DNA from: a virus
Taxonomy: Duplodnaviria; Heunggongvirae; Uroviricota; Caudoviricetes
Direction: 5' to 3' (one strand)
Virus record (IMG/VR): IMGVR_UViG_3300034156_000107
DNA length: 64,000 bases
Below are positions 50,563 through 64,000 of this stretch, one piece after another (the first letter of the stretch is position 1; each line of letters starts with the position of its first letter). The notes beneath the pieces are model-generated. The model was not told the DNA's origin. It searched no databases and saw nothing but the letters and a program-made list of their open reading frames with translations. The position numbers were made by a program, and so were the translations under genes.

Positions 50563-50579
50563 TTCAACTTACCGGAGAA

Positions 50580-50702
50580 TTACATCTCCTTGAGGTAAGC
50601 ACGCTTATCGCGTTTGTTTTTGTCTTTACGTTTTTTGTCTACATGAGTAGCCGCCTTATTGACGGTGTTCATGTGTTTCGCTACGAAGTTTTGAATTTGC
50701 AT
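50580..50702 (-). CDS. small basic protein (40 aa) on the minus strand
   Basis: Reverse-complement ATG with RBS GGTGA 5 nt upstream. MQIQNFVAKHMNTVNKAATHVDKKRKDKNKRDKRAYLKEM. Own minus-strand TGGTATAAT promoter at about 50756-50768. Confidence 0.5.
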   Translation of the reverse strand: MQIQNFVAKHMNTVNKAATHVDKKRKDKNKRDKRAYLKEM

Positions 50703-50755
50703 GGTATCACCTCAATAAGTTTTGTTTGGTTGTTTTGTTTCAGTGGGATTATTAT

Positions 50756-50768
50756 ACCAACATTTTAT
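50756..50768 (-). promoter_or_regulatory. minus-strand extended -10 promoter TGGTATAAT
   Basis: The reverse complement of ttattatacca reads tggtataataa, about 55 nt upstream of the minus-strand ATG. Confidence 0.4.
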
Positions 50769-50871
50769 GGGTTTGAAAAGTGTTTTTTGATTTATTTTTA
50801 AGAAAAAGCTCCTTTTTATCTTGGCAGTTATTTGCTATAATAGCTGAAATCATTCAGTGAAGGTCGTTATC

Positions 50872-51042
50872 ATGGCTAGTTGCAAATGTGTTAAATGTGG
50901 TGGCACTGACAAAAAGGCTATCTGTGAAAACACCATGTTCGCCCTGAAAGGTGCTGTTTACATTCAAGAAAAATTTGGTGTTTGGTTGTTTGTCATTGCC
51001 CTTTTAATTGCTTCTTGTGGCATGTTTGGTCTTTTTAATTAA
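50872..51042 (+). CDS. small zinc-ribbon/membrane protein
   Basis: Promoter tttgctataat. CKCVKCGG motif, then a hydrophobic C-terminal helix. Confidence 0.45.
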   Translation: MASCKCVKCGGTDKKAICENTMFALKGAVYIQEKFGVWLFVIALLIASCGMFGLFN

Positions 51043-51106
51043 CGATTTATATTGACTTAAACATGATTTTTAGTTAAAATAGCCATTCAAATTTTGGAGT
51101 TCTACC

Positions 51107-51613
51107 ATGCTGACTGCTATCAAAGAAAAAGTATTCCTGACCTTTCAAACACTGTTTCCTGCGGAAATGTATCAGATGTCGCAAGCTGCAGTGAAAGCCG
51201 CTGAGCAAGAACGGCGTGAACGTGAAAACGCCTTTGAACATGTTGTCTTTCAAGAATTGGTTAACAAACCCGTTATTGCTGTGGGCAATGACTGGTCTAA
51301 TCCGGTTATCGGCATCGGGCTTGAAGTTCAAGGCGTTTCCAAGGCTAACCGGCCCCACCTTGTCATCAAAGACTATGTGTCTGGTGAAGAAGTCATGCCA
51401 TACGGTGCTGTGATGGAATACAACGAAACTCGTTTTGACGCCATCATGAAACTGACCCCGGCTGAAATAACCAGTCTGGTTTATCGTTATTCTACCCCGC
51501 AAACTGTGCGTGAGGATCAGAAAGATAAACGCGATTCGCGGGAAGTCATTCTTCAAAAACTGACTACCAATGGTTTCTTTGAGGCTATCGCCGCTGTCAA
51601 GACCGATGAATAA
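51107..51613 (+). CDS. hypothetical protein
   Basis: Promoter tagttaaaat and RBS ttggag. Terminator at 51613-51634. Confidence 0.7.
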   Translation: MLTAIKEKVFLTFQTLFPAEMYQMSQAAVKAAEQERRERENAFEHVVFQELVNKPVIAVGNDWSNPVIGIGLEVQGVSKANRPHLVIKDYVSGEEVMPYGAVMEYNETRFDAIMKLTPAEITSLVYRYSTPQTVREDQKDKRDSREVILQKLTTNGFFEAIAAVKTDE

Positions 51614-51716
51614 GACCGCTTAGGCGGTTTTTTCATTTTAATGAAAAATGTTGTTGTCAAAAATGATATTTTCCATTATAATCTGTTCATCAAAACACAT
51701 CACCAAGGATTAAAAA

Positions 51717-52034
51717 ATGCCTTTCAAATTTGAGAAAAAAGCATTGGTCTACGTTTCTGACACCCTGACCAGCACCAAGCGTGTTTGGGTCAATTGCACG
51801 ACTGATATGCTTTATGCTCAGGGTGAAGCTTCTGCAATGCTGAAATCTCAGTTCTACGCACTGGACTGCATTTCTTGCTGGGGTGGTCGTGATAAGGTTG
51901 ATGAGCAATGTTCTGATGGTTCGCTGACTTCTTCGTGGGAAGTCCCCGCCGAGTTCGTTCCAGCCATGCAGCACATGATCATGAAGTTCAAATGGGAAGA
52001 AGAAAATTTCTTCTTGAAAGCTGCGAAAAGCTGA
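51717..52034 (+). CDS. hypothetical protein
   Basis: Promoter ttccattataat preceded by aaaatgttgttgtcaaaaatga. Terminator at 52049-52071. Confidence 0.65.
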   Translation: MPFKFEKKALVYVSDTLTSTKRVWVNCTTDMLYAQGEASAMLKSQFYALDCISCWGGRDKVDEQCSDGSLTSSWEVPAEFVPAMQHMIMKFKWEEENFFLKAAKS

Positions 52035-52094
52035 AAATTAGCCATATCAACCCTCTTCGGAGGGTTTTTTGATTATTATACAGGAGAACTTGCT

Positions 52095-52286
52095 ATGAAT
52101 GTATGGACAGATGAACATCCAACAGAACCCGGTTATTACTGGATTAAACGGGCTGTGACTGGTAGTAAAGATATTATTTATCTGACGAAAGAAATGTTGG
52201 TTCTTGAAGTCGGCAGTCGCAAACCTATCTCATCTTATTACGACATTCAAGCATGGGGATCTAAAGTCGATGAGCCGGATGAATAA
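52095..52286 (+). CDS. hypothetical protein
   Basis: RBS caggaga; 63 aa. Confidence 0.55.
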   Translation: MNVWTDEHPTEPGYYWIKRAVTGSKDIIYLTKEMLVLEVGSRKPISSYYDIQAWGSKVDEPDE

Positions 52287-52407
52287 TCATCCATTTTTTT
52301 TGAAAATAAGAAAAAATACGGTGCTTTTTCATTTGAAAATGAGTTTTTTGTTGTAATTTTCCTCGTTCTTTGTTAAAATAAACAAACGAAATTAGGAATT
52401 ACCGACA

Positions 52408-52806
52408 ATGTTTACTAACGAATTTTTAAATAGCCCGATGGGACAAGCTGCAATGGATTACGCCGAACAGGTGTATGCGTCCAGCTATAAGGCCGAAGAA
52501 TTCACCCTCGCCCAAAACCCAGAAATGCTTGATGAGCTGGTTTCTTATCACATGGAACCAGTTTACAAGCATCAACCGGCTGACCCCTTGTTCCTTGATG
52601 ATGATGAGTTTTTTGACTCGCCTGACAGCCCAGATTTGGAAATCATCCATGAAGGTATGAGCCGTGAGCAAGCCGAAGCAATGGCAAAGGTTTCGACCTA
52701 TGTTTGGCTCGTTAACTACAAGGGTGAAGGTGAAGGTTTCATTCTCAAAGAACTGGCCTCAAAACTGAGCCGCTTCAATGGTAAATGGAACTACTCCGAA
52801 GATTGA
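52408..52806 (+). CDS. hypothetical acidic protein
   Basis: RBS aggaat; 132 aa. Confidence 0.65.
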   Translation: MFTNEFLNSPMGQAAMDYAEQVYASSYKAEEFTLAQNPEMLDELVSYHMEPVYKHQPADPLFLDDDEFFDSPDSPDLEIIHEGMSREQAEAMAKVSTYVWLVNYKGEGEGFILKELASKLSRFNGKWNYSED

Positions 52807-52917
52807 AATCAGATTTAAAGACAGCAATCTAGCAATAGGTTGCTTTTTTTTGCAAAAAATATATTCCTAAAAAAGCTTTGTTATGTTATAATCGACAAAA
52901 TTTAAAGGATATCAACC

Positions 52918-53496
52918 ATGAACGAACATTCAGTTTTGAATACGAAAGATGAACAGTTGGCTCAAGAAGTCGGTATTGCGGTAGCTCGCACTATGTTCAA
53001 AGACCACCAGAACACTAAATATCAGTCATTCTTGTTCTCTTGGAAGACGCATGGCAGTATCGTGGCTGAAATGGCATCGGGCAAACTGTTTGTTTATTTC
53101 CGCTCTATTCCAGCGAACTATGCAGCTTTGCAAGCTATCACGGCAGACGCCGCACTTAATGAATGGAATAAATTGGTCAGTAATTCACCCGACTCGTTGC
53201 CTGTTGCTGTTTTCACCGTTGACGATATTGTGGAGCAATCAAAACAGTATTTCCATCGTTTCTACGAAACACTTGAAATTGAATTCGCACGGAAATACAC
53301 GCAAGAACATACAAAAGCTAATGACCTTGACTGGAAGGTTGTTTTCAATCATTTGCACACGCCGCTTTATGTGTATAACAAAGGCATTGAAAAACTGGAA
53401 GAGATTGTGCGAGATAAAGGTTTTTCAGTAGAAGAATCTGACATTATTTTCAAAAATGTTCGGCCTTACTTGAAACGTCTTTACATCGAAGATTAA
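52918..53496 (+). CDS. hypothetical protein
   Basis: Promoter tgttatgttataat and RBS aaaggat. Confidence 0.7.
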   Translation: MNEHSVLNTKDEQLAQEVGIAVARTMFKDHQNTKYQSFLFSWKTHGSIVAEMASGKLFVYFRSIPANYAALQAITADAALNEWNKLVSNSPDSLPVAVFTVDDIVEQSKQYFHRFYETLEIEFARKYTQEHTKANDLDWKVVFNHLHTPLYVYNKGIEKLEEIVRDKGFSVEESDIIFKNVRPYLKRLYIED

Positions 53497-53498
53497 AA

Positions 53499-53530
53499 AA
53501 AGACCTAGCTTCGGCTAGGTTTTTTGTTTT
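53499..53530 (+). terminator. intrinsic terminator (duplicated at 54049-54080)
   Basis: agacctagcttcggctaggt followed by TTTTT. Confidence 0.75.
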
Positions 53531-53590
53531 AATGTTTGCGTATTTTTCAGTTTTTTGATATCATTGCTCTCTACATTACAGAGGATACAC

Positions 53591-54031
53591 ATGATGGGCG
53601 TAGGTAAATATTCTCCAACTGTCAGCACTTCCTATCGTAAAGATCAAGGTTGGTATGAAAAGAATGGCGGCGGTTTTGGCAATGGTAAAAACCCTGATTC
53701 CGATTACGATGATGATGGATACGATTCGTATGGCTATAATGCCGATGGTCGTGACCGTGCTGGTCATCATGAAAATGATTATTCTTCTAGTTTTGAATGG
53801 AATGGTAATTCAGAATGTTACCCACTGAATGAGGATGTGCAATCGGAATGGGGTGGTCGCTGTATTCTTGCCATGCGTAAAGCCCGTGAAGAAGCTGCTG
53901 CTAATCCAGAAATGCAAGAAGCCTTCCGTCAACTTGCAGAAGTTCAAGACATTCTCCGAAAAGCTGCTGAGCTTGAACGTGGGCTGAAAGCCGATATTAC
54001 AAAGGCTTATCCTGACCTTTTGCTAGATTGA
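53591..54031 (+). CDS. Gly/Tyr/Asp-rich hypothetical protein (paralogue A)
   Basis: RBS agagga. MMGVGKYSPTVSTSYRKDQGWYEKNGGGFGNG...; track ORF 53555 ran upstream through the promoter. Confidence 0.7.
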   Translation: MMGVGKYSPTVSTSYRKDQGWYEKNGGGFGNGKNPDSDYDDDGYDSYGYNADGRDRAGHHENDYSSSFEWNGNSECYPLNEDVQSEWGGRCILAMRKAREEAAANPEMQEAFRQLAEVQDILRKAAELERGLKADITKAYPDLLLD

Positions 54032-54141
54032 TTTTGTCAATACGATTAAAGACCTAGCTTCGGCTAGGTTTTTTTGTTTTAATGGTTGCTTATTTTTCAG
54101 TTTTTTGATAGTATAGACTTCTAATTAAAGAGGATACACAC

Positions 54142-54714
54142 ATGGGCGTTGGAAAATATTCCCCAACTGTTAGCCGCTCTTACAGTCAAGACCAAGAATG
54201 GTTTGAGAAAAACGGCGGTGGCTTTGGTAATGGGCTGATGCCAGAATCTCAATTTGATAATCAGGGTTATGATTCGTATGGCTATTCCGGTTATACTGAA
54301 CTTGACCGGGCGGGTTACAGTGAGAATGATTACCTGAATGATTCTTATGGTGATGAACAACGCGGTATCTATGACCGTGTTCGTGATTTGTGGGATCATT
54401 ACAATGTGCCCACCATCCTCGATATGGCGATGATTGTTGCTACAAAAGTTGAAAATGACAAGCTGTTCGCCTTTAACCATGCGAAAATGGTGACGGTCAT
54501 CAATATCTACGAAGCTGCCAGCACAGCCAAGAACCAGCTAGATCAAACCTTCAAAATGGGGGCTGGTGCCGAAGGCAATGACATGTATCAAAAAGAGTTC
54601 AACGAATTTTTCAAGGAAGTCGCCAAAAACATTGCTGAACATAGTGTTTTCTTGGAAGAATTTTACGACAAATTTCTGACTGATTTCGTTCAACTTCAAA
54701 AAGCTTTTAAATAA
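54142..54714 (+). CDS. Gly/Tyr/Asp-rich hypothetical protein (paralogue B)
   Basis: The whole unit (terminator, promoter, RBS, N-terminus MGVGKYSPTVSRSY...) is a diverged tandem duplicate of 53499-54031. Confidence 0.7.
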   Translation: MGVGKYSPTVSRSYSQDQEWFEKNGGGFGNGLMPESQFDNQGYDSYGYSGYTELDRAGYSENDYLNDSYGDEQRGIYDRVRDLWDHYNVPTILDMAMIVATKVENDKLFAFNHAKMVTVINIYEAASTAKNQLDQTFKMGAGAEGNDMYQKEFNEFFKEVAKNIAEHSVFLEEFYDKFLTDFVQLQKAFK

Positions 54715-54787
54715 CAAAAATGTTGAAAATGTTTGTTATGTTTCGCAAACAATGCTATAATCAATTTTCAATTTAAGAGGTGTCACC

Positions 54788-55021
54788 ATGAAAAGCCAAC
54801 TTCAAGAAGACCAAGCAGAATCTCAATCGAACAACACTGTCGAAGCCAAAGCGGTTGCCATGCTGATGGCTCGTAATGAACGTCTCATTTCGCTGTTGGG
54901 TTGCCTTGTTGAAAGTGTGACTGCTGACACGGCAGGTAAAGAAATCAGTGAACAACTGAAAGCTGACCTTGATCTGGCTAACCTGACGCTTGATGAGTAT
55001 GAAAAAACCCCGCTTTATTAA
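54788..55021 (+). CDS. hypothetical protein
   Basis: Promoter caatgctataat and RBS agaggtg. Confidence 0.6.
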   Translation: MKSQLQEDQAESQSNNTVEAKAVAMLMARNERLISLLGCLVESVTADTAGKEISEQLKADLDLANLTLDEYEKTPLY

Positions 55022-55099
55022 TAGATAAAGCTTGTTTTAAAAGGTAATATTTGCTACACTTGCTTTTCACTAATCTAAACTAAATAAGGATACACATCA

Positions 55100-55954
55100 A
55101 TGCTTAAAAAGATTTTTGCTTCTCTTGTTCTTCTGGCATCAGTTGCCCTCAGTGGGTGTTCTGAAACCGTAGACGCTGGTTTTGTTGGTGTTGTTGAAAA
55201 ACATCCCTACGTTGGTCCGGGTGGTGTAGAGAAAGAATTTTACAAAGGTGGTGATCGCTACTATATCTCGCCAACCTCCATCATGCACCGCTATGACATT
55301 AAACCTATTCAGAAAGAAGAAGCGTTTAATGACTTGCCATCCAGTAGTTCAACTCCGGTAGACTTTAAAGCGGTGGTTCGTTATGAACTTATCCCTGAAC
55401 AGGCTTACATTTACCATGAAAAATTTGGTAATGCGATGTATGATAACAACTTGAAGAAAGACTTTCAAAATATGCTACGTGACTTTGCTCGACAGCATAC
55501 AGTGAAACAACTTACTACGGATCAGACTGTCACTGACGCTGGTGAAGATGCTGTCTACAAAAAGATGGTCGATATTGTGGTCACAAAAGGTATTCCAGTG
55601 CGAATTATGGCAGTGACCATCGGGGCGATTATGCCACCCGATGAAGTGCTTGCAGAGACGGCTCGGACAGAAGCACAAGTTCAACGAGCTTTGACAGAAG
55701 ACTCCCGTGCAGACGCCGAAAAGAAACGTAAGCAGGCTGAAACAAACAAAGCTGACGCTGACAATGAATACATGACCAAGATGAAAATGACACCTGAGCA
55801 ATACTTGCGAGGTCGTGAAATTGACAACCAGCGTGAGATTGTTGAAACGGTCAAAAAGAAAGATAACGTCAACATGTTGATTGTCTTGGGTGGTGGTGGT
55901 TCCCTTCCACAAGGGGTAACAGTTCCACAGCCAATCGTTCAACCAAAGCAGTAA
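55100..55954 (+). CDS. lipoprotein with SPFH/band-7 (HflK/C, QmcA-like) domain
   Basis: Lipobox ALSGC. Band-7-like N-terminus TVDAGFVGVVEKHPYVGPGG. Charged coiled-coil stretch (ARTEAQVQRALTEDSRADAEKKRKQAETNK). SPFH-typical tail NMLIVLGGGGSLP. Confidence 0.7.
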   Translation: MLKKIFASLVLLASVALSGCSETVDAGFVGVVEKHPYVGPGGVEKEFYKGGDRYYISPTSIMHRYDIKPIQKEEAFNDLPSSSSTPVDFKAVVRYELIPEQAYIYHEKFGNAMYDNNLKKDFQNMLRDFARQHTVKQLTTDQTVTDAGEDAVYKKMVDIVVTKGIPVRIMAVTIGAIMPPDEVLAETARTEAQVQRALTEDSRADAEKKRKQAETNKADADNEYMTKMKMTPEQYLRGREIDNQREIVETVKKKDNVNMLIVLGGGGSLPQGVTVPQPIVQPKQ

Positions 55955-55968
55955 ATAAGCAATAAGAA

Positions 55969-55994
55969 AAAAGGCCACTAGTTGGCCTTTTTTG
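55969..55994. terminator. bidirectional intrinsic terminator
   Basis: aaaaaaggccactagttggcctttttt, between convergent genes. Confidence 0.7.
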
Positions 55995-56011
55995 TTGTCT
56001 TTAATTAAGTA

Positions 56012-56479
56012 TTAAAGGTTAGGATAGCGGCATATTTTATAGTAGTTATACTTGGTATCAGCTCTATTAAATGATCCTAATACATAAGTGTATTGACCAG
56101 AAACAAATGGAAAATACTTATTTTGTGTGTATACGCTATCAATCAATATGGCATTAGACCATTTGATATATCTAATCATTCCTGTTGGATAAGGTTTTGA
56201 TGTATTAAATGTCATTGCATAGTTAGAACTTTCTGAATAGTTTTGGCATGTATAACCTGCCCTATCTTCGTCCTTTGGTGGCACTGGTGGTTCAGGAATT
56301 ACAGGGACTTCTGGCTCAGGCGGTATTGGTGGTGTTTCTGGATTTGTAGGCGGTTTGATCTTTGAAAATACGATGTCACCTTCATTTAAGTGAGCTTTTG
56401 GATGAATGACCACTTGATAACTTGCATTCGCTATTGTTGTTACAGCCAATAAAGAGGCTATCATTATTATTTTTTTCAT
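56012..56479 (-). CDS. secreted protein (Pro-rich linker, C-terminal YYKICRYP domain)
   Basis: Signal peptide MKKIIMIASLLAVTTIANA. Linker PPIPPEPEVPVIPEPPVPP. C-terminus SGQYTYVLG...YNYYKICRYPNL. Upstream (minus orientation) motif gtattataatatta. Confidence 0.7.
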   Translation of the reverse strand: MKKIIMIASLLAVTTIANASYQVVIHPKAHLNEGDIVFSKIKPPTNPETPPIPPEPEVPVIPEPPVPPKDEDRAGYTCQNYSESSNYAMTFNTSKPYPTGMIRYIKWSNAILIDSVYTQNKYFPFVSGQYTYVLGSFNRADTKYNYYKICRYPNL

Positions 56480-56498
56480 ATTTTATTTTTATTGTTCT

Positions 56499-56512
56499 TA
56501 ATATTATAATAC
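56499..56512 (-). promoter_or_regulatory. TATTATAATATTA upstream motif (secreted-gene class), minus orientation
   Basis: The reverse complement reads gtattataatatta, about 33 nt upstream of the minus-strand ATG. Confidence 0.3.
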
Positions 56513-56629
56513 ATCTGTTTAATAAAAAAACAACATAGCCAGTAATTACGGAAGTTTTTCTAAAAAAATATTGTCATTTTTCAGTTTTTGTTGTATAATT
56601 ATTCCACACTTATGTTGAGAGGATTTACC

Positions 56630-56884
56630 ATGACTACCGTTCAAACTCCAAAAGAAAGCGTGATTGAAGAAGCTACTGACATGATCGACCGTGTTCTGGC
56701 TGACGCTCGGGCTAAACTGCTGAAAGCGGTTGAATGTGGTGCCCTGAACATCACCGAAGATACATCGACACACATTGCTCTTGGTAAAGTTGTTGCCAAA
56801 GCTGTTTTGCTGGATGCTATCGACAATCAGTTGACTTTGGGTAGCCGTGATAAAGAAGTGAAGAACCTTCGCAGCCAGATTTAA
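56630..56884 (+). CDS. hypothetical protein
   Basis: Promoter ttgttgtataat and RBS gagagga. ATG at 56630 in frame with track ORF 56588. Terminator at 56903-56932. Confidence 0.6.
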   Translation: MTTVQTPKESVIEEATDMIDRVLADARAKLLKAVECGALNITEDTSTHIALGKVVAKAVLLDAIDNQLTLGSRDKEVKNLRSQI

Positions 56885-57011
56885 GCAGTAGCGACGTTCA
56901 AAAAAGCAGGCTTTCGGGGCTGCTTTTTTTTGACTTAAAATAAGATAAATGTTGTTTTTGTTTTTCATCCTTGTTATAATTGCTCCATCAAAACCAAAGG
57001 GGTTTACCATC

Positions 57012-57290
57012 ATGTCTATCACTACTGTAACCGTCACTTTTAAAGTCGATACTGTTCTTCGTGACGATACCACTGACTTCTTTCATTTGGACGCTGAAAT
57101 CCATCATAAGAATGTTTATGAGTTTCAGGTGCTGAGCTATGACAAAGACCGTAAACTGTGTGTGGCGGAACTCTACTTGCACAGTGCAGTAGACGAAAGC
57201 AAACTGCCAACCCTTTTCGATGGTTCCCGACTGTCGGTTAGCGTGGATTGCCGCGAAGTTGAATACTCAGGTTTGACGATTGCTGCATAA
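57012..57290 (+). CDS. hypothetical protein
   Basis: Promoter ccttgttataat preceded by aaatgttgtttttgttttt. RBS aaagggg. Confidence 0.6.
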   Translation: MSITTVTVTFKVDTVLRDDTTDFFHLDAEIHHKNVYEFQVLSYDKDRKLCVAELYLHSAVDESKLPTLFDGSRLSVSVDCREVEYSGLTIAA

Positions 57291-57355
57291 GGTCAACAAG
57301 GTTATTAATCAGCAGTCCTTCTGGGCTGCTTTTTCTTTTTTTAAGGAGTTCACAG

Positions 57356-57538
57356 ATGTTAAAAGAAGATCTTTATCACTGGCAAGACACCCCAGAAGAA
57401 ATGCAAAAATGCGACGAAGTATTCGAAAAATTTAACGCGGCTGGTTTGCTGGATGATTTGAAATACATCATTGATAAACGCATGGCAGACGCCCGTTCAG
57501 AAGAAGCGTATAATAATGCGAATTTTTCCGAAACGTAA
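57356..57538 (+). CDS. hypothetical protein
   Basis: RBS aaggag; 60 aa. Confidence 0.5.
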   Translation: MLKEDLYHWQDTPEEMQKCDEVFEKFNAAGLLDDLKYIIDKRMADARSEEAYNNANFSET

Positions 57539-57653
57539 CAAGCAATCATCTTCAAGAAATTTGTAGATATTTTTCAATAATCTGTTTTTTGACTTGCCTT
57601 CACTGCTGTATTTCGATATAATAGCCCAACTCAAACCAGTAGAGATTTGAACC

Positions 57654-58775
57654 ATGTCCAGCATCTTCCCGCGTATTGAAACCCTTGATGATATGCTTCC
57701 TCACATCAAAGACCGTGCCTATATTTCTGTTAATAAACAGGATAACGGTGCCAACATCGTTTGCTATAACATCAGCAACGGCGACTCTTTCAACACTCCG
57801 GTTGAAAAGGAAGCTCGCGGTATTACCTTTGACGACAACGGTAAAATCCTGTCGCGTCCATTGCACAAATTCTTCAACTTGGCAGAGCGTGCAGAAGTCC
57901 AACCAGCCGTTTTGGATTGGAACACGATGGTCGCCGGGTTTGATAAAATGGATGGCTCCATGATTACCACAGGGCTGTTCAACGGCGAATTTTTTGCTAA
58001 GTCCAAGAAGTCTTTCAAATCGGATGTGGCTGTTTCTGCAGAAAGTTTTGTGTCTCGTAACCAGAAATACTACGAGTTCACCAAATATTGCTCTCAGGCC
58101 CAACTGACCCCTATTTTTGAATTCACTTCGCCAAAACATCGTATCGTTTTGCGTTATGACGAAGACAACATGACACTTCTTCATGTTCGTCACAACATCA
58201 CAGGCGATTACTTAATGCCTGCTGACAAAGACCAACTGGCGTTGTTGTTTGATATTCCTGTTAACAAGCCACTGTTTGGTGAAGAATTTGATTTGGCTGC
58301 TTTATTGAAGTCGCTGAACACTGTTGAAGGGATTGAAGGCTACGTTATTCAGTTCGTTAACGGTAACATGATCAAAATCAAAACCAAATGGTATATGAAC
58401 CTCCATCATGCGGTTAGCTTTGTTCGTGAACGTGATATTGCTCGGTTGGTGGTTGAAGAAAAACTTGATGATTATATCGCTTATTTGTCGCTGAACTCGC
58501 CAACGGCTGATTTGAGTGAGATTTATCGAATCAATGACGCTATCAAAGCTTCGATTGAAGCGTTGTCGAAAGAAGTTGATGATATTGCTGCTGAATTCCA
58601 AGGTGTTGATGTGAAAACTGCAGCAATTCAGCTTAAAGGCCATAAACACTTTGGTTTTGTTATGGGTGCAATTCGTGGTCACAAAAACGACTACCTGTAT
58701 CACTACTCTAAAAACCATCTGGTGGATTGGTCGTTGGAACAAATTGAGCTTGGCGACTTGTCAGCTCCGGTTTAA
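57654..58775 (+). CDS. RNA ligase, T4 Rnl1 family (paralogue A)
   Basis: Nucleotidyltransferase motif I FDKMDGSM (KxDG), motif IV EGIEGYVIQF and motif V MIKIKTKWY. N-terminus YNISNG...ARGITF...PLHKFFNL parallels T4 Rnl1 YRIFSYNY...CRGIMF...PMEKFFNL. Promoter atttcgatataat. Confidence 0.8.
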   Translation: MSSIFPRIETLDDMLPHIKDRAYISVNKQDNGANIVCYNISNGDSFNTPVEKEARGITFDDNGKILSRPLHKFFNLAERAEVQPAVLDWNTMVAGFDKMDGSMITTGLFNGEFFAKSKKSFKSDVAVSAESFVSRNQKYYEFTKYCSQAQLTPIFEFTSPKHRIVLRYDEDNMTLLHVRHNITGDYLMPADKDQLALLFDIPVNKPLFGEEFDLAALLKSLNTVEGIEGYVIQFVNGNMIKIKTKWYMNLHHAVSFVRERDIARLVVEEKLDDYIAYLSLNSPTADLSEIYRINDAIKASIEALSKEVDDIAAEFQGVDVKTAAIQLKGHKHFGFVMGAIRGHKNDYLYHYSKNHLVDWSLEQIELGDLSAPV

Positions 58776-58792
58776 ATCAGTATGAAGAAAGA

Positions 58793-58818
58793 AGCCCTGC
58801 ACTTGCGGGGCTTTTTAA
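58793..58818 (+). terminator. intrinsic terminator
   Basis: gaagccctgcacttgcggggctttttaat. Confidence 0.6.
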
Positions 58819-58892
58819 TAATAATCTATTTTTTGGTTGTTAATATTTAGTGTTTGATGTATAATCAATCCATCAAAACAGAGGTTTATCTC

Positions 58893-59276
58893 ATGACAAC
58901 CATCCGCGATAAAGCAGCTAACGTAGACATCACCAGCAAAGGCTTTCTTGATTTTACTGCCCCATTCCGAAAAGGTCAGCATTCTGTTATTTGCTGGTCT
59001 TTGGTCGAAGATGGTTCTTGTGGCATAGAGGAAACCATTGCTTGTCCACCTAATTTTCAACTGGTGGCTATGATGTTTCCAGACGTTTCGGCTGTTGTTA
59101 TGATGGATCTGGCTCAAAAACTGCGTAGCTTGTTCAACTCTTGGTGGATAACCGAAGAACCCGAAGCGTATGCAGAGCCGCCACGGAATTATTCGCGTTT
59201 TTCTGCCACCATTGAATACACTCGTCTTTATGCTTTCTATCTTGAACAGAAAAAAGCGATGGACGCAAAAGCGTAA
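58893..59276 (+). CDS. hypothetical protein between the two ligase genes
   Basis: Promoter gatgtataat and RBS agaggtt; start moved to ATG 58893. Confidence 0.65.
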   Translation: MTTIRDKAANVDITSKGFLDFTAPFRKGQHSVICWSLVEDGSCGIEETIACPPNFQLVAMMFPDVSAVVMMDLAQKLRSLFNSWWITEEPEAYAEPPRNYSRFSATIEYTRLYAFYLEQKKAMDAKA

Positions 59277-59367
59277 ATATCACAAGAAAAGGCAGTCTTT
59301 GACTGTCTTTTTCGTTGTTTGAAAACAATATTTCATGTATAATCCACTGATTAACCCAGAGGTTTCT

Positions 59368-59685
59368 ATGACTAAATTTCGAATTTCCTATGACCTAACG
59401 AATGGTGTTGCAACCCCAGATGGATTATGTGTCAGTCTGGTGGATGAACTGATTTCTTTGCGTCATCTTGGCGATGTGAGCTACACGACTTCGACGGTCA
59501 GTGTCATCACGGCATTCCGGTTGGCTGCGGCTGAAAAGAAAATCAGCGTTGACGATATTGTCTTTGTTTTTGATGGGGCTGATGTCACAATGGACAACAA
59601 ATTTGAACTGTCGGCTTGGCCTAAACAGGGCGACATTCAAGGCAACATGCTTGGAAAAATCATGCAAGCACGAAAAAAAGTTTGA
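59368..59685 (+). CDS. hypothetical protein between the two ligase genes
   Basis: Promoter catgtataat and RBS agaggtt; start moved to ATG 59368. Confidence 0.6.
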   Translation: MTKFRISYDLTNGVATPDGLCVSLVDELISLRHLGDVSYTTSTVSVITAFRLAAAEKKISVDDIVFVFDGADVTMDNKFELSAWPKQGDIQGNMLGKIMQARKKV

Positions 59686-59741
59686 ATTAAAAATCAGTTT
59701 TTGATATAATCAATTCAGACAATTTAATCGTGGAGATTCAC

Positions 59742-60863
59742 ATGACTTATCAACAAGAACTGTATGCCCAACTGATGAACCTGTTGGTGACGAATCCGGG
59801 GTCGTTCAAATACCGTGATGAAACCTCGGCAGTAGACGGCGGGACTTACCGTGTCTTCAACTATGACATTCCAAAGCACTCCGAATTCAAACTTCCGGGT
59901 GCTAAGGATTGCCGTGGGGTCATGTTCTACATGGGCGGTGATGATCCAGTGCTGGTTGCATTGCCTATGCAGAAATTTTTCTCGCTCGGTGAAACCCCAG
60001 AGACTCAAAAGATCAAGCCAGAAGAAGCGGATCATGCTTACTTGAAGCCGGACGGTTCCTTGCTGACCAGCTATATCTCGCCGGTTAACAATACGCTTTA
60101 CTACAAGAGCAAAAAGAAGCCAACTTTTGCCGATTATGACCTTGTTGAGAAGTCTATCAGCCCTGAGTTGCACGCTGACATTGAGCGTCTGACCCGCACA
60201 GGTATTTCTGTTGACTTGGAATTGACCACGCCCAAAAACCGCGTGTTCATTGAATACACTGATTACGCTGTTCATATCCTAAAAGCCCGTGATATGAGCA
60301 CTGGTGCTTATGTTGATATTCGTTCGGCTGAATTCGCTGCCAAATACCCGGTTATTGCGGCCCATTTGGTGAAACGTATCCCTATCAATGAACTCAACGT
60401 CAATGACCCTGAGATTGAGGGTTATGTGGTTGAATTTGGCACTGACATGTATAAGGTGAAGACAATTCCTTACCTGAAAATGTCGGCAGTTGTCAACATT
60501 CAGGATCGGTCGAAGGAACGTCAGGTTATTTATGAAGCAACCCTTCACGAAATTCTGGATGAAATCCGTTCGTTGTATCACTACCGGACGCACAGCGACA
60601 ACTTCCCACTGGCTGAAATTCTGGCTCGCTTGGATGAAGTAGAAGACTATGCACGTAAAAGCTACCATTACCTTGTTCGCACGGTCGATAGCTTCCACAA
60701 TGAGCATAAAGGTCTGGAACGTGGCGATTACGCTCGTAAAGCCAAAGAAGTGGCTCCATTGCTTCTGTCGGTGTTGATGAGCAAGTTTTCGGGTGATGAG
60801 ATTGATTACAAACAAGCTGCTATCATGGTATTTGCTCGTAAACAAGTGCCTATTCCCGAGTAA
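59742..60863 (+). CDS. rnlA: RNA ligase, T4 Rnl1 family (paralogue B, closer to T4 Rnl1)
   Basis: TYRVFNYDIP...CRGVMFYMGGD...PMQKFFSLGE...YLKPDGSLLTSY...EGYVVEFGTDMYKVKT mirrors T4 Rnl1 TYRIFSYNYA...CRGIMFEMDGE...PMEKFFNLNE...LTKEDGSLVSTY...EGYVAVMKDGSHFKIKS. Promoter gatataat and RBS tggag. Confidence 0.9.
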   Translation: MTYQQELYAQLMNLLVTNPGSFKYRDETSAVDGGTYRVFNYDIPKHSEFKLPGAKDCRGVMFYMGGDDPVLVALPMQKFFSLGETPETQKIKPEEADHAYLKPDGSLLTSYISPVNNTLYYKSKKKPTFADYDLVEKSISPELHADIERLTRTGISVDLELTTPKNRVFIEYTDYAVHILKARDMSTGAYVDIRSAEFAAKYPVIAAHLVKRIPINELNVNDPEIEGYVVEFGTDMYKVKTIPYLKMSAVVNIQDRSKERQVIYEATLHEILDEIRSLYHYRTHSDNFPLAEILARLDEVEDYARKSYHYLVRTVDSFHNEHKGLERGDYARKAKEVAPLLLSVLMSKFSGDEIDYKQAAIMVFARKQVPIPE

Positions 60864-60879
60864 GTGACTGTTTAATAAA

Positions 60880-60908
60880 ACGGCCCTAGTCTTCTAGGGC
60901 TTTTTTAT
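60880..60908 (+). terminator. intrinsic terminator
   Basis: cggccctagtcttctagggcttttttatt. Confidence 0.75.
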
Positions 60909-60992
60909 TTCTATTCAAAAATAGCTTTACGAAAATTATGTTTTTTGCTATAATTCAACTGTTGAAACATACATACTACTCAGGAGCTGAAA

Positions 60993-61280
60993 ATGCCATT
61001 CACTGCAAGCATTGTTAACCGTCATGGTTACGCCCATGCTTTCTGCAAATCCAGCCACGGCCATTACTACATGGGTGGCCCGAAAACTGCAGAAGTGGTT
61101 TTTCAAACGGTAAAAGAGTTCAATGATTTTGTTGAACATCTGGAACATTTGACGGTTGAAGACCCGCGTGTTTCTCAGTATGACCTTGATGTGTTTGGTT
61201 TTGTTAAAGGTCGTGTTCAATTTGATTTGATTACACCGAAAACCGCTAGACCACCAGCACCCATTCATAAACTTAAATAA
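60993..61280 (+). CDS. hypothetical protein
   Basis: Promoter tttttgctataat and RBS aggag; 95 aa. Confidence 0.65.
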   Translation: MPFTASIVNRHGYAHAFCKSSHGHYYMGGPKTAEVVFQTVKEFNDFVEHLEHLTVEDPRVSQYDLDVFGFVKGRVQFDLITPKTARPPAPIHKLK

Positions 61281-61293
61281 TATTGGAGTTGTC

Positions 61294-61605
61294 ATGAAAA
61301 AATTACTGTGCTTTTTGGCTGTACCCTTTTTGCTAACAGGTTGTTTGGATGAATTAAAAACGTCCGAAGCTTCACAGGTAAGCACTGCGAATACAATCAA
61401 GTATCAAAAGGAAATTGATATTGCTCGGGATAACGGCCCGCAAGATATTGTTTGTAGCTCAGGTGGTGTTGTTACCTATAAGCACGAAAATGTTATCTTG
61501 TATCGTAGCATTTATTCAGATACTAGAAACATTGATGTCTATGAACAAGACACTACTGAGAAAGTTGTTGTTTCTGGGGACTGCACCATTCGCCCACATA
61601 AGTAA
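61294..61605 (+). CDS. lipoprotein (tandem paralogue 1)
   Basis: Lipobox LLTGC; RBS ttggag. Confidence 0.7.
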   Translation: MKKLLCFLAVPFLLTGCLDELKTSEASQVSTANTIKYQKEIDIARDNGPQDIVCSSGGVVTYKHENVILYRSIYSDTRNIDVYEQDTTEKVVVSGDCTIRPHK

Positions 61606-61646
61606 CACATATTTTCGTTTATTTAGAACAAATTATTGGAGACTTT

Positions 61647-61940
61647 ATGAAAAAAATATTAGTTGGATTAGCTCTTTCATTGGCACTGTCAGGTTGTGAT
61701 CGTGTACAACCCGCTGCTGTAGATCCTCAAAACAGGGTTATCAGTTATGAACGCGAATATGGCCCGAAAGATATCATTTGCCATTCTGGTTCAGTGGTGA
61801 CTTATGATCACAAAAATGTCATTATTTATCAAAATATTCAGCATAATTCTACCATTCTCGATGTTTATGAGAATGATACTCATGAAAAGATTGGTTTGCC
61901 AGTGGCTCAATGTATTTGGCGACCTCACAAGCAAAGTTAA
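61647..61940 (+). CDS. lipoprotein (tandem paralogue 2)
   Basis: Lipobox ALSGC. Shared core GP(Q/K)DI(V/I)C(S/H)SG(G/S)VVTY.H(E/K)NVI(L/I)Y...DVYE(Q/N)DT.EK. RBS ttggag. Terminator at 61948-61973. Confidence 0.7.
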   Translation: MKKILVGLALSLALSGCDRVQPAAVDPQNRVISYEREYGPKDIICHSGSVVTYDHKNVIIYQNIQHNSTILDVYENDTHEKIGLPVAQCIWRPHKQS

Positions 61941-62034
61941 CTGTTGAAAAAGCCGCTTTCGAGCGGTTTTTTGTTGTCTAATTGTTGATAAATCTGTATA
62001 ATAACGATATAGATAAATCCATGAGGCTACGCGA

Positions 62035-62712
62035 ATGAAACTGACTCACGCTGAAATCATTGTTAAACGCATCATGTTGACTAGTCCGCTTACGTCAAAA
62101 AGTCGTTTGTCCGTATTGTCTCATATTCTTTTGCGTGAGCCTTTCGCACAGTGGGGTGCTGATGGGTGTGTTCATATTCACAAAGTAAAAGACACCAATC
62201 CTCGAAAAGCAGTCATGTCCATGCCGGATCATTTGGTGAAACCGCTTGACATTGACAAGGAAATTCAGAAAATGATGCCTGATTACTATGAGGCTCGATT
62301 GGTAGAGCGTGAACTTGAAATCATGCAATATGCCTTCATGGAAAAGAACATTGATATTTATGCCAAAAAGAACCTGTCGCATCAACCCGGATTGAAAGCA
62401 GAAGTATTGACTGCCAATGCCAGCAATGCTCTCATTTTTAGTATCCCTGACAATGTTGAAGCCAGTTGGAAAAAAGCTGCTCTGGAAGTGGTTGACGCTA
62501 TTATCTTGGCGTTGCGGGAAGAAAAATTTATTACTCGCAACCTTAAAGGTGAAAAAAATGACCCGTTGAAAGCTGAAAACTGGCGAATGGGGTATTGGGC
62601 TAGCATGTATGAAAAATTTCACAACGTTCGTGAAAAACTTTCTCTACCTGTGTCTAATCGTGCAGTTCTCGATATATCGGCAATGTGGGATTCGGTTGTG
62701 AATCCGAAATAA
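62035..62712 (+). CDS. hypothetical protein
   Basis: Promoter aatctgtataat and RBS gagg. Terminator at 62732-62757. Confidence 0.7.
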   Translation: MKLTHAEIIVKRIMLTSPLTSKSRLSVLSHILLREPFAQWGADGCVHIHKVKDTNPRKAVMSMPDHLVKPLDIDKEIQKMMPDYYEARLVERELEIMQYAFMEKNIDIYAKKNLSHQPGLKAEVLTANASNALIFSIPDNVEASWKKAALEVVDAIILALREEKFITRNLKGEKNDPLKAENWRMGYWASMYEKFHNVREKLSLPVSNRAVLDISAMWDSVVNPK

Positions 62713-62819
62713 AAACAGTTCAAACCATTAAAAGACCGCTTTCGAGTGGTTTTTTTATTGTGAAAAACTCATATTTGTTGTATAATAGCCTCATCTTAAC
62801 TCGAACAGGTAAATGAAAA

Positions 62820-63395
62820 ATGTCTACTATTAATGTTGGTAAACTCTCTGAAATCAAATCCAGCTCCGAATTGAAACGCAAGCTTGAACAAATCAAGTCT
62901 GGCATCAAAATGGCCGTGAGCCAGTTGGAAAAGACTGCAGTGGTTATTCCACAAGAATTCCTGTTTACTTTCCGTATGGGTCACAAGATTTTCACCGTTG
63001 TTCCCAACACGGAAGAACTTTCCAAAGGCACCTTCGACTTGGGCCAACAGCTTAAAAAACTGGATCTGGCTGACTTCCAAAAGGTCAACCTGCTGGTGGA
63101 GCTGGAATCTGTTTCGTTGGCCGACCGACTGAACAGCATGAAATCGGATGTGTTGACCATTAAAGGTAGCGATGTTCGTTTTCGTGCAAAACACATCATC
63201 AAGCCAGCACAACCCGGCCAAGAACACCTGAACGCATGGTCGAATTTGACTGATGTTGTTTCGATTGTCGTCACCCGCCTTCCAGAAAATCCAGACGTGC
63301 GTGTTCAAGCCGAATTGGCACACTTGAAAGACGTTATCGAAAATTCGAGTTTTTTCGCAGTAGACAAAGATGAAAATCTTTTGATTAAACTGTAA
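62820..63395 (+). CDS. hypothetical protein, paralogue of 49223..49777
   Basis: Promoter tttgttgtataat; 191 aa. Confidence 0.7.
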   Translation: MSTINVGKLSEIKSSSELKRKLEQIKSGIKMAVSQLEKTAVVIPQEFLFTFRMGHKIFTVVPNTEELSKGTFDLGQQLKKLDLADFQKVNLLVELESVSLADRLNSMKSDVLTIKGSDVRFRAKHIIKPAQPGQEHLNAWSNLTDVVSIVVTRLPENPDVRVQAELAHLKDVIENSSFFAVDKDENLLIKL

Positions 63396-63467
63396 AAAAA
63401 GCTTGTCCAAATAAGAGTTTTTCGGTATACTACACCCATCAAATCAACGAAGTGAAGGAAATCAAAA

Positions 63468-64000
63468 ATGACTAAGACTACTGTTCTCAACCACTCCGCA
63501 ATGTCCGCTAAACTGCGTAGCATCTTCACCGCCAACAAAGACATGAAGGCTGTTTCGAAAATGCTGACCCAAGAATTCACCCTGTCGAAAACCGACGTTC
63601 CAAACGTCATGACGCTCACCATGAAAAACGGTGAAGCTCAATCGGTTACCATCATCGACAACCGTTTTGCAGTCATCAGCTACGCCAAGCCGAAGGGTGC
63701 GAAGGCCAGCACGATTTTCCTAAACAAATCAACGCCTATCACTTCGATGAAAGCCAGCAAAGTGGTTGTGGTTGACCTCGAAGAACGCACTGTCGAAAAC
63801 GGCGACTCGTTCGTAGGCTTCTCGCTGAAAAACGGTGGTAATGTGCCGGTTGACTTCTTGCTGGGTAGCTCGCTGGAACTGGTCGCTGTTCGTAACTACA
63901 TCAACCACACTCAGCTCTATGTTGCCACCCTTGACAACAAAGTGCTGGTAGCCGACAACATCAAAGCAGTTCGTTCCTTCATCAACGCCGAAGTGAAAGT
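63468..64000 (+). CDS. hypothetical protein, 3' end truncated by the window edge
   Basis: Promoter ttttcggtatact and RBS gaagga. The open frame MTKTTVLNHSAMSAKLRSIF... runs with no stop to the window end. Confidence 0.55.
   Translation, partial: MTKTTVLNHSAMSAKLRSIFTANKDMKAVSKMLTQEFTLSKTDVPNVMTLTMKNGEAQSVTIIDNRFAVISYAKPKGAKASTIFLNKSTPITSMKASKVVVVDLEERTVENGDSFVGFSLKNGGNVPVDFLLGSSLELVAVRNYINHTQLYVATLDNKVLVADNIKAVRSFINAEVK

What the first reader, a model, noticed from the sequence alone, without database searches (positions are those of the whole stretch)
57654..60863. Two divergent Rnl1-type RNA ligases in one 3.2-kb block
Both 57654..58775 and 59742..60863 carry the covalent nucleotidyltransferase motifs of T4 RNA ligase 1: KxDG in FDKMDGSM and YLKPDGSL, EGYV, and a K-x-K motif V. 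They also have the Rnl1-specific N-terminal segments. Apart from these motifs they are highly diverged from one another. They are separated by two small genes and each has its own promoter and terminator. T4-like phages normally carry one rnlA. Rnl1 reseals tRNA anticodon loops cut by host anticodon nucleases such as PrrC. A duplicated, diverged pair suggests specialisation for different broken RNA substrates, or one copy may have been recruited to a new function.
Basis: partly seen in the sequence, partly recalled or inferred. Interest (0 to 1): 0.6.

Follow-up and report, generated by a model that had tools for sequence, protein, structure and literature searches.

The report
Two ancient RNA ligase 1 paralogs
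An uncultivated giant phage carries two intact, only 26% identical T4-type RNA ligase 1 genes side by side; no sequenced phage in the collection searched has two, but the idea fits what is known of RNA-repair gene sets in giant phages.

Summary
ORFs 57654..58775 and 59742..60863 (373 aa each) both belong to the T4 Rnl1 family by Pfam, PHROG, the T4 Rnl1 crystal-structure sequences and full-length fold matches. Both keep every catalytic residue checked: R54, K75, F77, K99, D101, G102, K119, E159, E227, G228, K240 and K242 (T4 numbering). Each has a sigma-70-type promoter conserved in relatives and a terminator hairpin.

The word "duplicated" is wrong. The copies are 26% identical and fall on opposite sides of a 100%-bootstrap split of the family. 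Copy 2 groups with T4-type enzymes. Copy 1 groups with RsoM2USA and BcepSauron-type enzymes.

The adjacent pair recurs on at least six other metagenome contigs at 79-91% identity, under strong purifying selection (dN/dS 0.09 and 0.06). A more distant relative carries both types about 194 kb apart. None of 1,687 Rnl1-bearing phage records has two.

The best reading is two active, non-redundant RNA-repair ligases with different substrate ranges. That part is inferred, not shown, and no Pnkp lies in the window. Jumbo phages with several ligase paralogs are already described, so interest is moderate.

In passing: this lineage sits on contigs of 1.5-1.9 Mb, which needs its own follow-up.

The parts
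57594..57622 (+). sigma-70-type promoter of copy 1 (TTGCCT, 17 nt spacer, TATAAT)
   Evidence: 10 of 12 positions. The -35 TTG and the -10 TA.AAT are conserved in L035, L036 and L020.
57654..58775 (+). Rnl1 copy 1, 373 aa. Catalytic residues: K98 (motif I KMDG), E156, E228-G229, K241/K243, R55, K72, F74. RsoM2USA/BcepSauron-type subfamily.
58789..58816 (+). intrinsic terminator hairpin after copy 1, with a U-run
   Evidence: -19.1 kcal/mol, z -4.93, 0 of 200 shuffles fold as well.
58837..58865 (+). promoter of the first intervening gene (TTGTTA, 17 nt spacer, TATAAT)
58893..59276 (+). intervening ORFan, 127 aa. The start is taken at the ATG after a GAGG Shine-Dalgarno, because the longer ORF start lies inside the -10 box.
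   Evidence: No Pfam, PHROG, NCBIfam or phage tblastn hit. It is 70-81% identical in L020, L021, L035 and L036.
59286..59312 (+). terminator hairpin after the first intervening gene
   Evidence: -15 kcal/mol, z -3.55.
59368..59685 (+). intervening ORF, 105 aa, phrog_12026 (unknown function). It evolves fast. A TATAAT at 59338-59343 lies upstream (read by eye).
   Evidence: It is 32-59% identical in relatives whose flanking ligases are 79-91% identical.
59682..59710 (+). promoter of copy 2 (TTGAAT, 17 nt spacer, TATAAT, preceded by TG)
   Evidence: The -35, -10 and GGAG SD are conserved in relatives.
59742..60863 (+). Rnl1 copy 2, 373 aa. Catalytic residues: K102 (motif I KPDG), E160, E226-G227, K238/K240, R58, K78, F79. 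Long-branch clade that groups with the T4-type enzymes.
60882..60907 (+). intrinsic terminator after copy 2
   Evidence: -17.7 kcal/mol, z -5.58.

Best explanation
The block encodes two catalytically competent ATP-dependent RNA ligases of the Rnl1 family. They come from two anciently separated subfamilies, and this lineage of very large uncultivated phages has kept both for a long time. Each gene is transcribed on its own by host sigma-70 RNA polymerase from an early-type promoter. Each enzyme should act by the classic three steps. First the motif-I lysine (K98 in copy 1, K102 in copy 2) is adenylylated. Then AMP is transferred to a 5'-phosphate RNA end. Finally the 3'-OH attacks to seal the break. 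By analogy with T4 Rnl1, the physiological substrates are most likely host or phage tRNAs nicked in the anticodon loop by host defence ribonucleases, after the ends are healed by a kinase-phosphatase encoded elsewhere. Both genes are retained under strong purifying selection, and their C-terminal domains, the tRNA-specificity module in T4 Rnl1, are the most diverged part (21% identity). I therefore infer that the two are non-redundant and cover different broken RNAs or lesion types. Shown: family membership, intact catalytic residues, deep divergence, co-retention, purifying selection, separate transcription signals. Inferred: enzymatic activity, tRNA as the substrate, different specificities.
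For: - **Family and fold.** AF2 models have pLDDT 90.3 and 91.6. Their best Foldseek hits are T4 Rnl1 5tt6/2c5u/9do4 over 374-380 columns, E 6e-22 and 1e-25.
- **Catalytic residues.** R54, K75, F77, K99, D101, G102, S103, K119, E159, R182, E227, G228, K240, K242 and Y246 (T4 numbering) are invariant in T4, both copies and RsoM2USA. They are also invariant across each copy's own family, down to 31-38% identity.
- **C-domain homology.** hhalign of the two family profiles gives probability 100% and E 1.6e-44, with columns 46-366 aligned.
- **Deep split.** An NJ tree of 58 sequences with 100 bootstraps gives a 100% bipartition. One side holds T4, S16, EJP2 and the copy 2 clade. The other holds the copy 1 clade with RsoM2USA, BcepSauron, Moby, phiM12 and CcrBL9.
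- **Co-retention.** The adjacent pair occurs in L001-L004, L020, L021, L035 and L036. Contig Ga0247725_1000001 holds a copy-1 type (68%) and a copy-2 type (70%) about 194 kb apart.
- **Selection.** dN/dS is 0.087 for copy 1 and 0.056 for copy 2 against L020.
- **Domain divergence.** Identity between the copies is 25% in the N-domain and 21% in the C-domain.
- **Transcription signals.**
- **Literature.** The Rnl1 C-domain sets the specificity for tRNA anticodon-loop breaks (PMC6379707). Jumbo phages carry various combinations and paralogs of RNA ligases that are inferred to be non-redundant (PMC7824862).
Against: - There is no biochemical evidence of any kind.
- No Pnkp-type end-healing enzyme and no Rnl2 lie in the 64-kb window or the close loci, and only one odd tRNA gene is present. 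The repair pathway is therefore not visible here.
- Both genes carry the same class of early promoter, so there is no sign of specialisation by timing.
- Divergence of the C-domains does not by itself prove different specificity. C-domains are also the faster-evolving part within each family.
- Neither protein reaches the NCBIfam equivalog cut-off for T4 RnlA: 152 and 147 bits against 242.
- dS exceeds 1, so the dN/dS values are approximate.
- Several related contigs show only one type within 10 kb on either side. That does not show the other type is absent from those genomes.
Confidence: 0.6

Rival explanations
1. The two roles of T4 gp63 have been divided. One copy acts mainly as the RNA ligase. 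The other mainly promotes tail-fibre attachment to the baseplate.
For: T4 gp63 is bifunctional, and mutants separate ligase activity from tail-fibre attachment (PMC3004832). [quoted passage not shown]
Against: A copy dedicated to fibre attachment would be free to lose catalytic residues. Both families instead keep all of them down to 31-38% identity under dN/dS below 0.1. Both genes sit among early-type sigma-70 transcription units, not among late morphogenesis genes. No sequence determinant of the attachment activity is known, so this cannot be excluded.
Confidence: 0.12
2. The second copy is a redundant passenger. A related co-infecting phage donated a mobile early-gene cassette, and the extra copy adds only dosage or nothing.
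For: In L007 (copy 1 at 74%) the three-gene block orf127-orf105-copy 2 is missing between copy 1 and the homolog of 60993..61280. Every gene here is a self-contained promoter-gene-terminator unit. Copy 2 has the highest GC3 of the genes measured (0.51 against 0.46 for copy 1) and a lower codon-usage correlation with the pooled large genes of the window than copy 1 (0.34 against 0.55).
Against: The pair persists across lineages diverged to saturation at synonymous sites (dS above 1), and both members are under strong purifying selection. A relative at 68-70% identity still has both types, at separate loci. The whole 48-64 kb region shares the higher GC, not copy 2 alone.
Confidence: 0.12
3. One copy has been recruited to a task other than repair. 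Examples are processing or circularising phage RNAs, or ligating a different nucleic acid, while the ligase chemistry is kept.
For: The copy 2 clade sits on a long branch and is small, with 46 relatives at E <= 1e-10 against 794 for copy 1. In relatives the two types keep different company. The copy-2 type lies next to a NUDIX gene, TyrRS and a class-I aaRS (PF00749, tRNA-synt_1c). The copy-1 type lies next to an AlkB-like dioxygenase and an Rnl2-type ligase.
Against: Both keep the Rnl1-type C-domain that in T4 directs the enzyme to tRNA (PMC6379707). A neighbourhood of aminoacyl-tRNA synthetase genes points to tRNA biology rather than away from it.
Confidence: 0.12
4. A recent tandem duplication was followed by fast divergence.
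For: The genes are adjacent, on the same strand and of identical length, 373 aa.
Against: Each copy is closer to ligases of other phages than to its neighbour. Copy 1 is 41% identical to RsoM2USA and copy 2 is 27-31% identical to T4-type enzymes, against 21-26% between the copies. The split has 100% bootstrap support.
Confidence: 0.02

Closest known systems
Bacteriophage T4 RNA ligase 1 (gp63, rnlA; PDB 2C5U, 5TT6, 9DO4)
   Same: Same three-part architecture: N-terminal sub-domain, nucleotidyltransferase core with motifs I, III, IV and V, and an all-helical C-domain. All catalytic residues checked are the same. The size is about 373 aa. It is the best sequence and fold match in the PDB for both copies.
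   Different: Identity is only 27-31%. Neither copy reaches the NCBIfam equivalog cut-off. T4 has one Rnl1, next to denA and alc and near pseT (Pnkp). Here two Rnl1 genes sit among ORFans with no Pnkp in view. Foldseek TM is about 0.58 with a large rmsd. I read that as a different relative placement of the two domains in the models, but this was not tested.
Multi-ligase RNA-repair repertoires of jumbo phages (Iyer et al. 2021, PMC7824862): BcepSauron and BcepSaruman with RtcB + Rnl1 + Rnl2; XacN1 with three Rnl2 paralogs
   Same: A very large phage carries more than one RNA ligase. The paralogs are long diverged and are presumed to serve different lesions inflicted by host RNases.
   Different: Here the two ligases are both of the Rnl1 family. 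None of the 1,687 Rnl1-bearing records among 50,697 phage records shows that combination. Close relatives of this phage instead pair the copy-1 type with an Rnl2-type ligase 7 kb away.
Ralstonia jumbo phage RsoM2USA gp480 (AVH85407.1, annotated as hypothetical)
   Same: It is the closest isolate homolog of copy 1: 41.7% over 97% of the length, in the same subfamily and with the same catalytic residues.
   Different: RsoM2USA has a single copy (one place in the record). No copy-2 type was detected in it.

Membership tests
Rnl1 family of ATP-dependent RNA ligases | Covalent nucleotidyltransferase core with motif I KxDG lysine, motif III Glu, motif IV EG and motif V KxK | tested here: met
   K99, D101, G102, E159, E227, G228, K240 and K242 equivalents are invariant in both copies and across both families. 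Pfam PF09511 is above the gathering score for both.
Rnl1 family of ATP-dependent RNA ligases | Rnl1-type N-terminal sub-domain that supplies the Arg54, Lys75 and Phe76/77 contacts to ATP | tested here: met
   R54, K75, F76 and F77 are invariant in alignment A1. Their role comes from PMC6379707.
Rnl1 family of ATP-dependent RNA ligases | The Rnl1-specific all-helical C-terminal domain, the feature that separates Rnl1 from Rnl2-Rnl6 | tested here: met
   The AF2 models are helical from about residue 245 to 360. Foldseek aligns 374-380 columns to T4 Rnl1. phrog_562 matches to profile position 353-366 of 377. hhalign between the two families runs through the C-domain. Pfam PF20819 is only a weak match for copy 2 (E 0.0019, below cut-off) and absent for copy 1.
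Rnl1 family of ATP-dependent RNA ligases | Self-adenylylation and sealing of 3'-OH/5'-PO4 RNA ends, with a preference for tRNA anticodon-loop nicks | not testable with these tools
   Needs purified protein.
T4 RnlA equivalog (NCBIfam TIGR02308) | Whole-protein score at or above the curated cut-off of 242.25 bits | tested here: not met
   152.4 bits for copy 1 and 146.6 bits for copy 2. Both are diverged family members and not equivalogs by NCBI's criterion.
T4-type tRNA repair pathway (Pnkp + Rnl1 against anticodon nucleases) | A polynucleotide kinase-phosphatase encoded by the same genome to heal 2',3'-cyclic phosphate and 5'-OH ends | tested here: inconclusive
   tblastn with T4 Pnkp finds nothing in the window or the close loci, but does find one beside Rnl1 in the T4-like locus L014. 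The window is a small part of a genome of several hundred kb or more.
gp63 tail-fibre attachment catalyst | Promotes joining of long tail fibres to the baseplate | not testable with these tools
   No sequence signature of this activity is known. It is separable from ligase activity in T4 (PMC3004832).

The most novel reading that the evidence does not exclude
The two Rnl1 subfamilies have different tRNA or lesion specificities, set by their diverged C-domains. This phage lineage would then neutralise two different host tRNA-cleaving defence nucleases with two dedicated sealing enzymes. The natural pair, encoded and expressed side by side, would give a direct comparative handle on how the Rnl1 C-domain reads its tRNA. 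No enzyme-tRNA structure yet answers that question.
Probability: 0.4. Interest if true: 0.55.

Novelty: new variant of a known kind. Interest (0 to 1): 0.4.

Why it matters
tRNA-cleaving nucleases such as PrrC, RloC, PARIS AriB, retron effectors and bacterial Schlafens are now recognised as widespread antiphage weapons. Phage countermeasures known so far are extra tRNAs and repair enzymes.

A phage lineage that has kept two anciently diverged Rnl1 ligases suggests that one Rnl1 cannot mend everything. Ligase specificity may itself be a front in this arms race.

Practically, the pair supplies two new and very different Rnl1 scaffolds. T4 Rnl1 is a workhorse of RNA-sequencing library preparation, so new scaffolds have some use. 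The pair also offers a natural experiment on the specificity role of the C-domain.

The concept is not new. Multiple RNA ligases in jumbo phages, presumed non-redundant, were described in 2021. The gain is therefore incremental unless biochemistry shows distinct specificities.

Tried and rejected
- **Megablast of the region and of 24 kb of the window against 50,697 phage records.** No match, so no annotated close relative could be used.
- **IMG/VR scans.** Copy 2 as a single protein found nothing. The family alignment found one locus at 48%. An exact 39-mer from copy 2 is not in IMG/VR.
- **Source contig of the window.** A look-up of the first window gene returned only short contigs of 1.5-7 kb, none of them the megabase contig. 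The window is 100% identical to parts of two contigs of JGI sample 3300034160 but longer than either.
- **Pfam scans of 40 window ORFs of 150 aa or more.** Confident hits were only a pentapeptide-repeat protein, SPFH/Band 7, CinA and an RNase T-type exonuclease. There were also sub-threshold PD-(D/E)XK, DUF7717 and MtrC matches, and no RNA-repair partner.
- **Rfam.** It found only the one tRNA.
- **The two intervening ORFs.** They have no informative homologs. They are not constant neighbours of copy-2-type genes in more distant relatives. I therefore dropped the idea of a three-gene functional module.
- **GTDB genomes.** The best match is 42%, so there is no host clue and no sign that the megabase contigs are known bacteria.
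- **The fern (Adiantum) assembly hit to the copy 2 family.** It lies in ORF-poor DNA, not on a phage contig.
- **dN/dS for the 56949 gene.** The value was discarded because the coordinates I paired were out of frame.
- **Recent-duplication hypothesis.** Rejected on the tree.
- **Pseudo-enzyme hypothesis.** Rejected on residue conservation.
Full report
**What is there.** The region holds four tightly packed genes on the + strand.
- Copy 1, 57654..58775, 373 aa.
- An ORFan of 127 aa. I place its start at ATG 58893, after a GAGG Shine-Dalgarno, because the longer ORF start lies inside the -10 box.
- A 105-aa ORF, 59368..59685, phrog_12026, of unknown function.
- Copy 2, 59742..60863, 373 aa.

Independent JGI gene calls on identical metagenome contigs give the same ligase boundaries.

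**Both large genes are Rnl1 homologs.** The table gives the matches.

| Test | Copy 1 | Copy 2 |
|---|---|---|
| Pfam PF09511 (gathering score 28.3 bits) | 97.4 bits | 34.2 bits |
| phrog_562, near full length | E 6e-73 | E 1.9e-46 |
| T4 Rnl1 PDB chains 2c5u/5tt6/9do4 | E 2e-27 | E 2.4e-34 |

The two proteins share 26% identity, E 4e-16. The window holds no third copy.

**Catalytic competence.** I aligned T4 Rnl1 (taken from NC_000866), both copies and the closest isolate homolog, RsoM2USA gp480. The invariant residues in T4 numbering are:
- the motif-I nucleophile K99 with D101, G102 and S103;
- K119, E159 (motif III), E227-G228 (motif IV) and K240/K242 (motif V);
- the N-sub-domain ATP contacts R54, K75, F76 and F77;
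- Y37, R182 and Y246.

The roles of R54, K75 and F76 are taken from PMC6379707. The essentiality of the other residues is from my memory of the Shuman-laboratory mutagenesis papers, which I could not open. The same residues are invariant across 24 members of the copy 2 family, down to 31% identity. They are also invariant across 33 members of the copy 1 family, down to 38%.

**Fold and C-terminal domain.** AlphaFold2 models built on the family alignments are confident: pLDDT 91.6 for copy 2 and 90.3 for copy 1. Both show a beta-rich N-terminal part followed by an all-helical domain from about residue 245 onward. Foldseek against the PDB ranks the three T4 Rnl1 entries first for both models. 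The alignments cover 374-380 columns, with E 1e-25 and 6e-22. Fungal Trl1-LIG and archaeal Rnl3 enzymes follow at E 1e-11 to 1e-6.

A profile-profile comparison of the two families aligns columns 46-366, through the C-domain, at probability 100%. Both are therefore two-domain Rnl1 enzymes. The C-domain is the most diverged part between them, at 21% identity against 25% for the N-domain. By the strict NCBIfam equivalog model for T4 RnlA, neither copy reaches the cut-off: 152 and 147 bits against 242. They are family members, not close equivalents of the T4 enzyme.

**Transcription units.** Consensus sigma-70 promoters with a perfect TATAAT and a 17-nt spacer lie 30-35 nt upstream of copy 1 (57594-57622), the first small gene (58837-58865) and copy 2 (59682-59710). 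The same holds for most neighbouring genes. The total count of promoter-like sites in the region is not above the shuffled expectation, but their placement is regular.

The -35, -10 and Shine-Dalgarno elements are conserved in relatives whose intergenic DNA is only about 75% identical. Hairpin-plus-U-run terminators follow copy 1 (-19.1 kcal/mol, z -4.9), the first small gene (-15 kcal/mol) and copy 2 (-17.7 kcal/mol, z -5.6). This is the pattern of phage early genes read by host RNA polymerase. Both ligases should be made from the start of infection.

**Not a duplication.** I built a neighbour-joining tree of 58 Rnl1 sequences on 351 trimmed columns with 100 bootstraps. It has a 100%-supported bipartition.
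- One side holds T4, Salmonella phage S16, the Rak2-like phage EJP2 and the copy 2 clade. Together with P0046, its nearest outlier, that clade is supported at 94%.
- The other side holds the copy 1 clade with RsoM2USA, BcepSauron, Moby, phiM12 and CcrBL9.

Copy 1 is 41% identical to RsoM2USA. Copy 2 is 27-31% identical to T4-type enzymes. Each is only 21-26% identical to its neighbour. The copy 1 side is large and the copy 2 clade small: 794 against 46 relatives at E <= 1e-10 in the 5.8-billion-protein search. The pair is therefore made of ancient paralogs or xenologs.

**How far the pair is conserved.**

| Locus or contig | Copy 1 type | Copy 2 type | Arrangement |
|---|---|---|---|
| L001-L004 (three JGI samples of the same population) | 100% | 99.7-100% | adjacent |
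| L020, L021 (two Logan assemblies) | 79% | 88% | adjacent |
| L035 (Ga0308158_10000001) | 85% | 91% | adjacent |
| L036 (Ga0308157_10000028) | 80% | 89% | adjacent |
| Ga0247725_1000001 | 68%, at 622-643 kb | 70%, at 816-837 kb | same strand, about 194 kb apart |
| L007 (290-kb IMG/VR contig) | 74% | none within 10 kb on either side | three-gene block absent |

In L007 the neighbouring genes are syntenic, but the block orf127-orf105-copy 2 is missing. Either the block moved next to copy 1 in the window's sub-lineage, or L007 lost it. Other relatives show only one type within 10 kb on either side, which does not establish absence from the genome.

Between the window and L020, dN/dS is 0.087 for copy 1 and 0.056 for copy 2. 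Synonymous sites are near saturation, so both values are approximate. Co-retention over that depth argues against simple redundancy.

**Rarity.** tblastn of either copy against 50,697 phage records finds 1,687 and 1,565 records. Every record has exactly one place. Each query detects both subfamilies, so a genome with two copies would have shown two places. Within that collection and at that sensitivity, no sequenced phage has two Rnl1 genes.

The concept, however, is not new. Iyer et al. [quoted passage not shown] They note that XacN1 has three Rnl2 paralogs, and they conclude that such ligases are probably non-redundant. Relatives of the present phage pair the copy-1 type with an Rnl2-type ligase (PF09414) 7 kb upstream and an AlkB-like dioxygenase next door. 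The copy-2 type sits beside a NUDIX gene, with a TyrRS gene downstream and a further class-I aaRS gene (PF00749, tRNA-synt_1c) in L018.

**Mechanism proposed.** Both proteins act as ATP-dependent RNA ligases by lysine adenylylation, 5'-phosphate activation and sealing. By analogy with T4, they reseal tRNAs cut by host defence nucleases after end healing. The divergence of the C-domains, together with long-term co-retention, suggests different substrate ranges.

The weak points are these. No Pnkp, Rnl2 or RtcB lies in the window. Both genes have the same promoter class. Nothing here measures specificity.

The main rivals are as follows.
- **A split of the two gp63 activities, ligase and tail-fibre attachment** (PMC3004832). 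Conservation of all catalytic residues in both families argues against it, but it cannot be excluded.
- **Redundant carriage after cassette transfer.** The deep co-retention argues against it.
- **Recruitment of one copy to a non-repair RNA task.**

**Verdict.** This is a real, conserved and, among sequenced phages, so far unseen Rnl1 + Rnl1 pairing. It is a new variant of the known multi-ligase repertoire of giant phages. It is of moderate interest until biochemistry shows whether the two differ in substrate.

**Context worth separate attention.** The window has almost no recognisable genes and no nucleotide match to known phages. Its lineage appears on metagenome contigs of 498 kb (the same length in two samples), 678 kb, 726 kb, 1.54 Mb, 1.86 Mb and 1.92 Mb. 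The 1.54-Mb contig is phage-like at two points 194 kb apart. Nothing closer than 42% identity to copy 1 turned up in GTDB genomes. My literature search found no phage genome above about 1 Mb. I could not test whether these lengths are real or assembly artefacts.

Noticed in passing
L002 (Ga0370506_000001, 1,917,244 bp), L035 (Ga0308158_10000001, 1,859,102 bp), L023 and L037 (Ga0247725_1000001, 1,539,155 bp), L036 (677,834 bp), P0061 (726,387-bp Logan contig), L016 and L039 (497,857 and 497,968 bp): The window's phage lineage sits on extraordinarily long metagenome contigs from independent samples. L002 is 96% identical in DNA to window 47649-64000. The 1.54-Mb contig is phage-like (ORFans, aaRS genes, ligases) at two points 194 kb apart. 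Nothing closer than 42% identity to copy 1 was found in GTDB genomes, and my literature search found no phage above about 1 Mb. These are either phages far above the published record of about 735 kb (from memory), or concatemer or chimeric assemblies, or phage-like regions of unknown replicons.
   Followed up: partly
window 35869-35939 (+): This is the only tRNA gene in the window (Rfam 44 bits). It has a 6-nt anticodon loop, CGAAAA, where 7 nt is normal. ARAGORN cannot assign an anticodon and calls it Phe-like. A terminator follows. It could be a nuclease-resistant or decoy tRNA, or a pseudogene.
   Followed up: partly
window 404-1537 (+) and 6080-7255 (+); also 56012-56479 (-): Two paralogous predicted secreted proteins are 66% identical. 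Each has an N-terminal signal-like segment and three internal repeats of about 60 aa (W..NG..C.NWSP...FTQTATDC.Q.QT..QDRE). Each ends in a Y.ICR.P motif, which the 155-aa protein at 56012-56479 shares. None has a Pfam hit.
   Followed up: partly
window 1-47000 versus 48000-64000: There is a sharp change in composition. Large genes in the first 47 kb have GC3 of 0.18-0.25. Genes around the ligases have GC3 of 0.39-0.51, with copy 2 the highest at 0.51. This suggests a mosaic origin for the early-gene region.
   Followed up: partly
window 59368-59685 (+): The 105-aa gene between the ligases (phrog_12026) evolves much faster than its neighbours. It is 32-59% identical in relatives whose flanking ligases are 79-91% identical. 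Its only isolate homolog is a hypothetical protein of Pseudomonas phage pf16.
   Followed up: partly
L023, L024, L025 (3054-4139 and 8658-9266); L018, L037: In relatives the copy-1-type ligase lies 7 kb from an Rnl2-type ligase (PF09414 + PF21189) and next to an AlkB-like 2OG-Fe(II) oxygenase. The copy-2-type lies between a NUDIX hydrolase and a TyrRS gene, with a further class-I aaRS gene (PF00749) and a nucleoside 2-deoxyribosyltransferase nearby. Upstream is a run of seven or eight ORFs of about 250 aa, with no Pfam hits where scanned.
   Followed up: partly
window 22024-22506, 34035-34622, 36634-37518, 55100-55954: These are the few recognisable genes among more than 40 scanned: CinA/PncC-type NMN amidohydrolase (E 3e-30), an RNase T/DEDDh exonuclease (E 9e-18), a pentapeptide-repeat protein (E 8e-28) and an SPFH/Band 7 protein (E 7e-14).
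   Followed up: no
L133 (Adiantum nelumboides assembly JAKNSL020003210.1, 540802-561977): A fern genome assembly has two adjacent annotated genes (P0042, P0044) that are 45-46% identical to copy 2. The surrounding 21 kb is ORF-poor, with 37% GC, and is not phage-like. This may be a transferred or degraded phage gene in a plant genome, or a local contaminant.
   Followed up: partly
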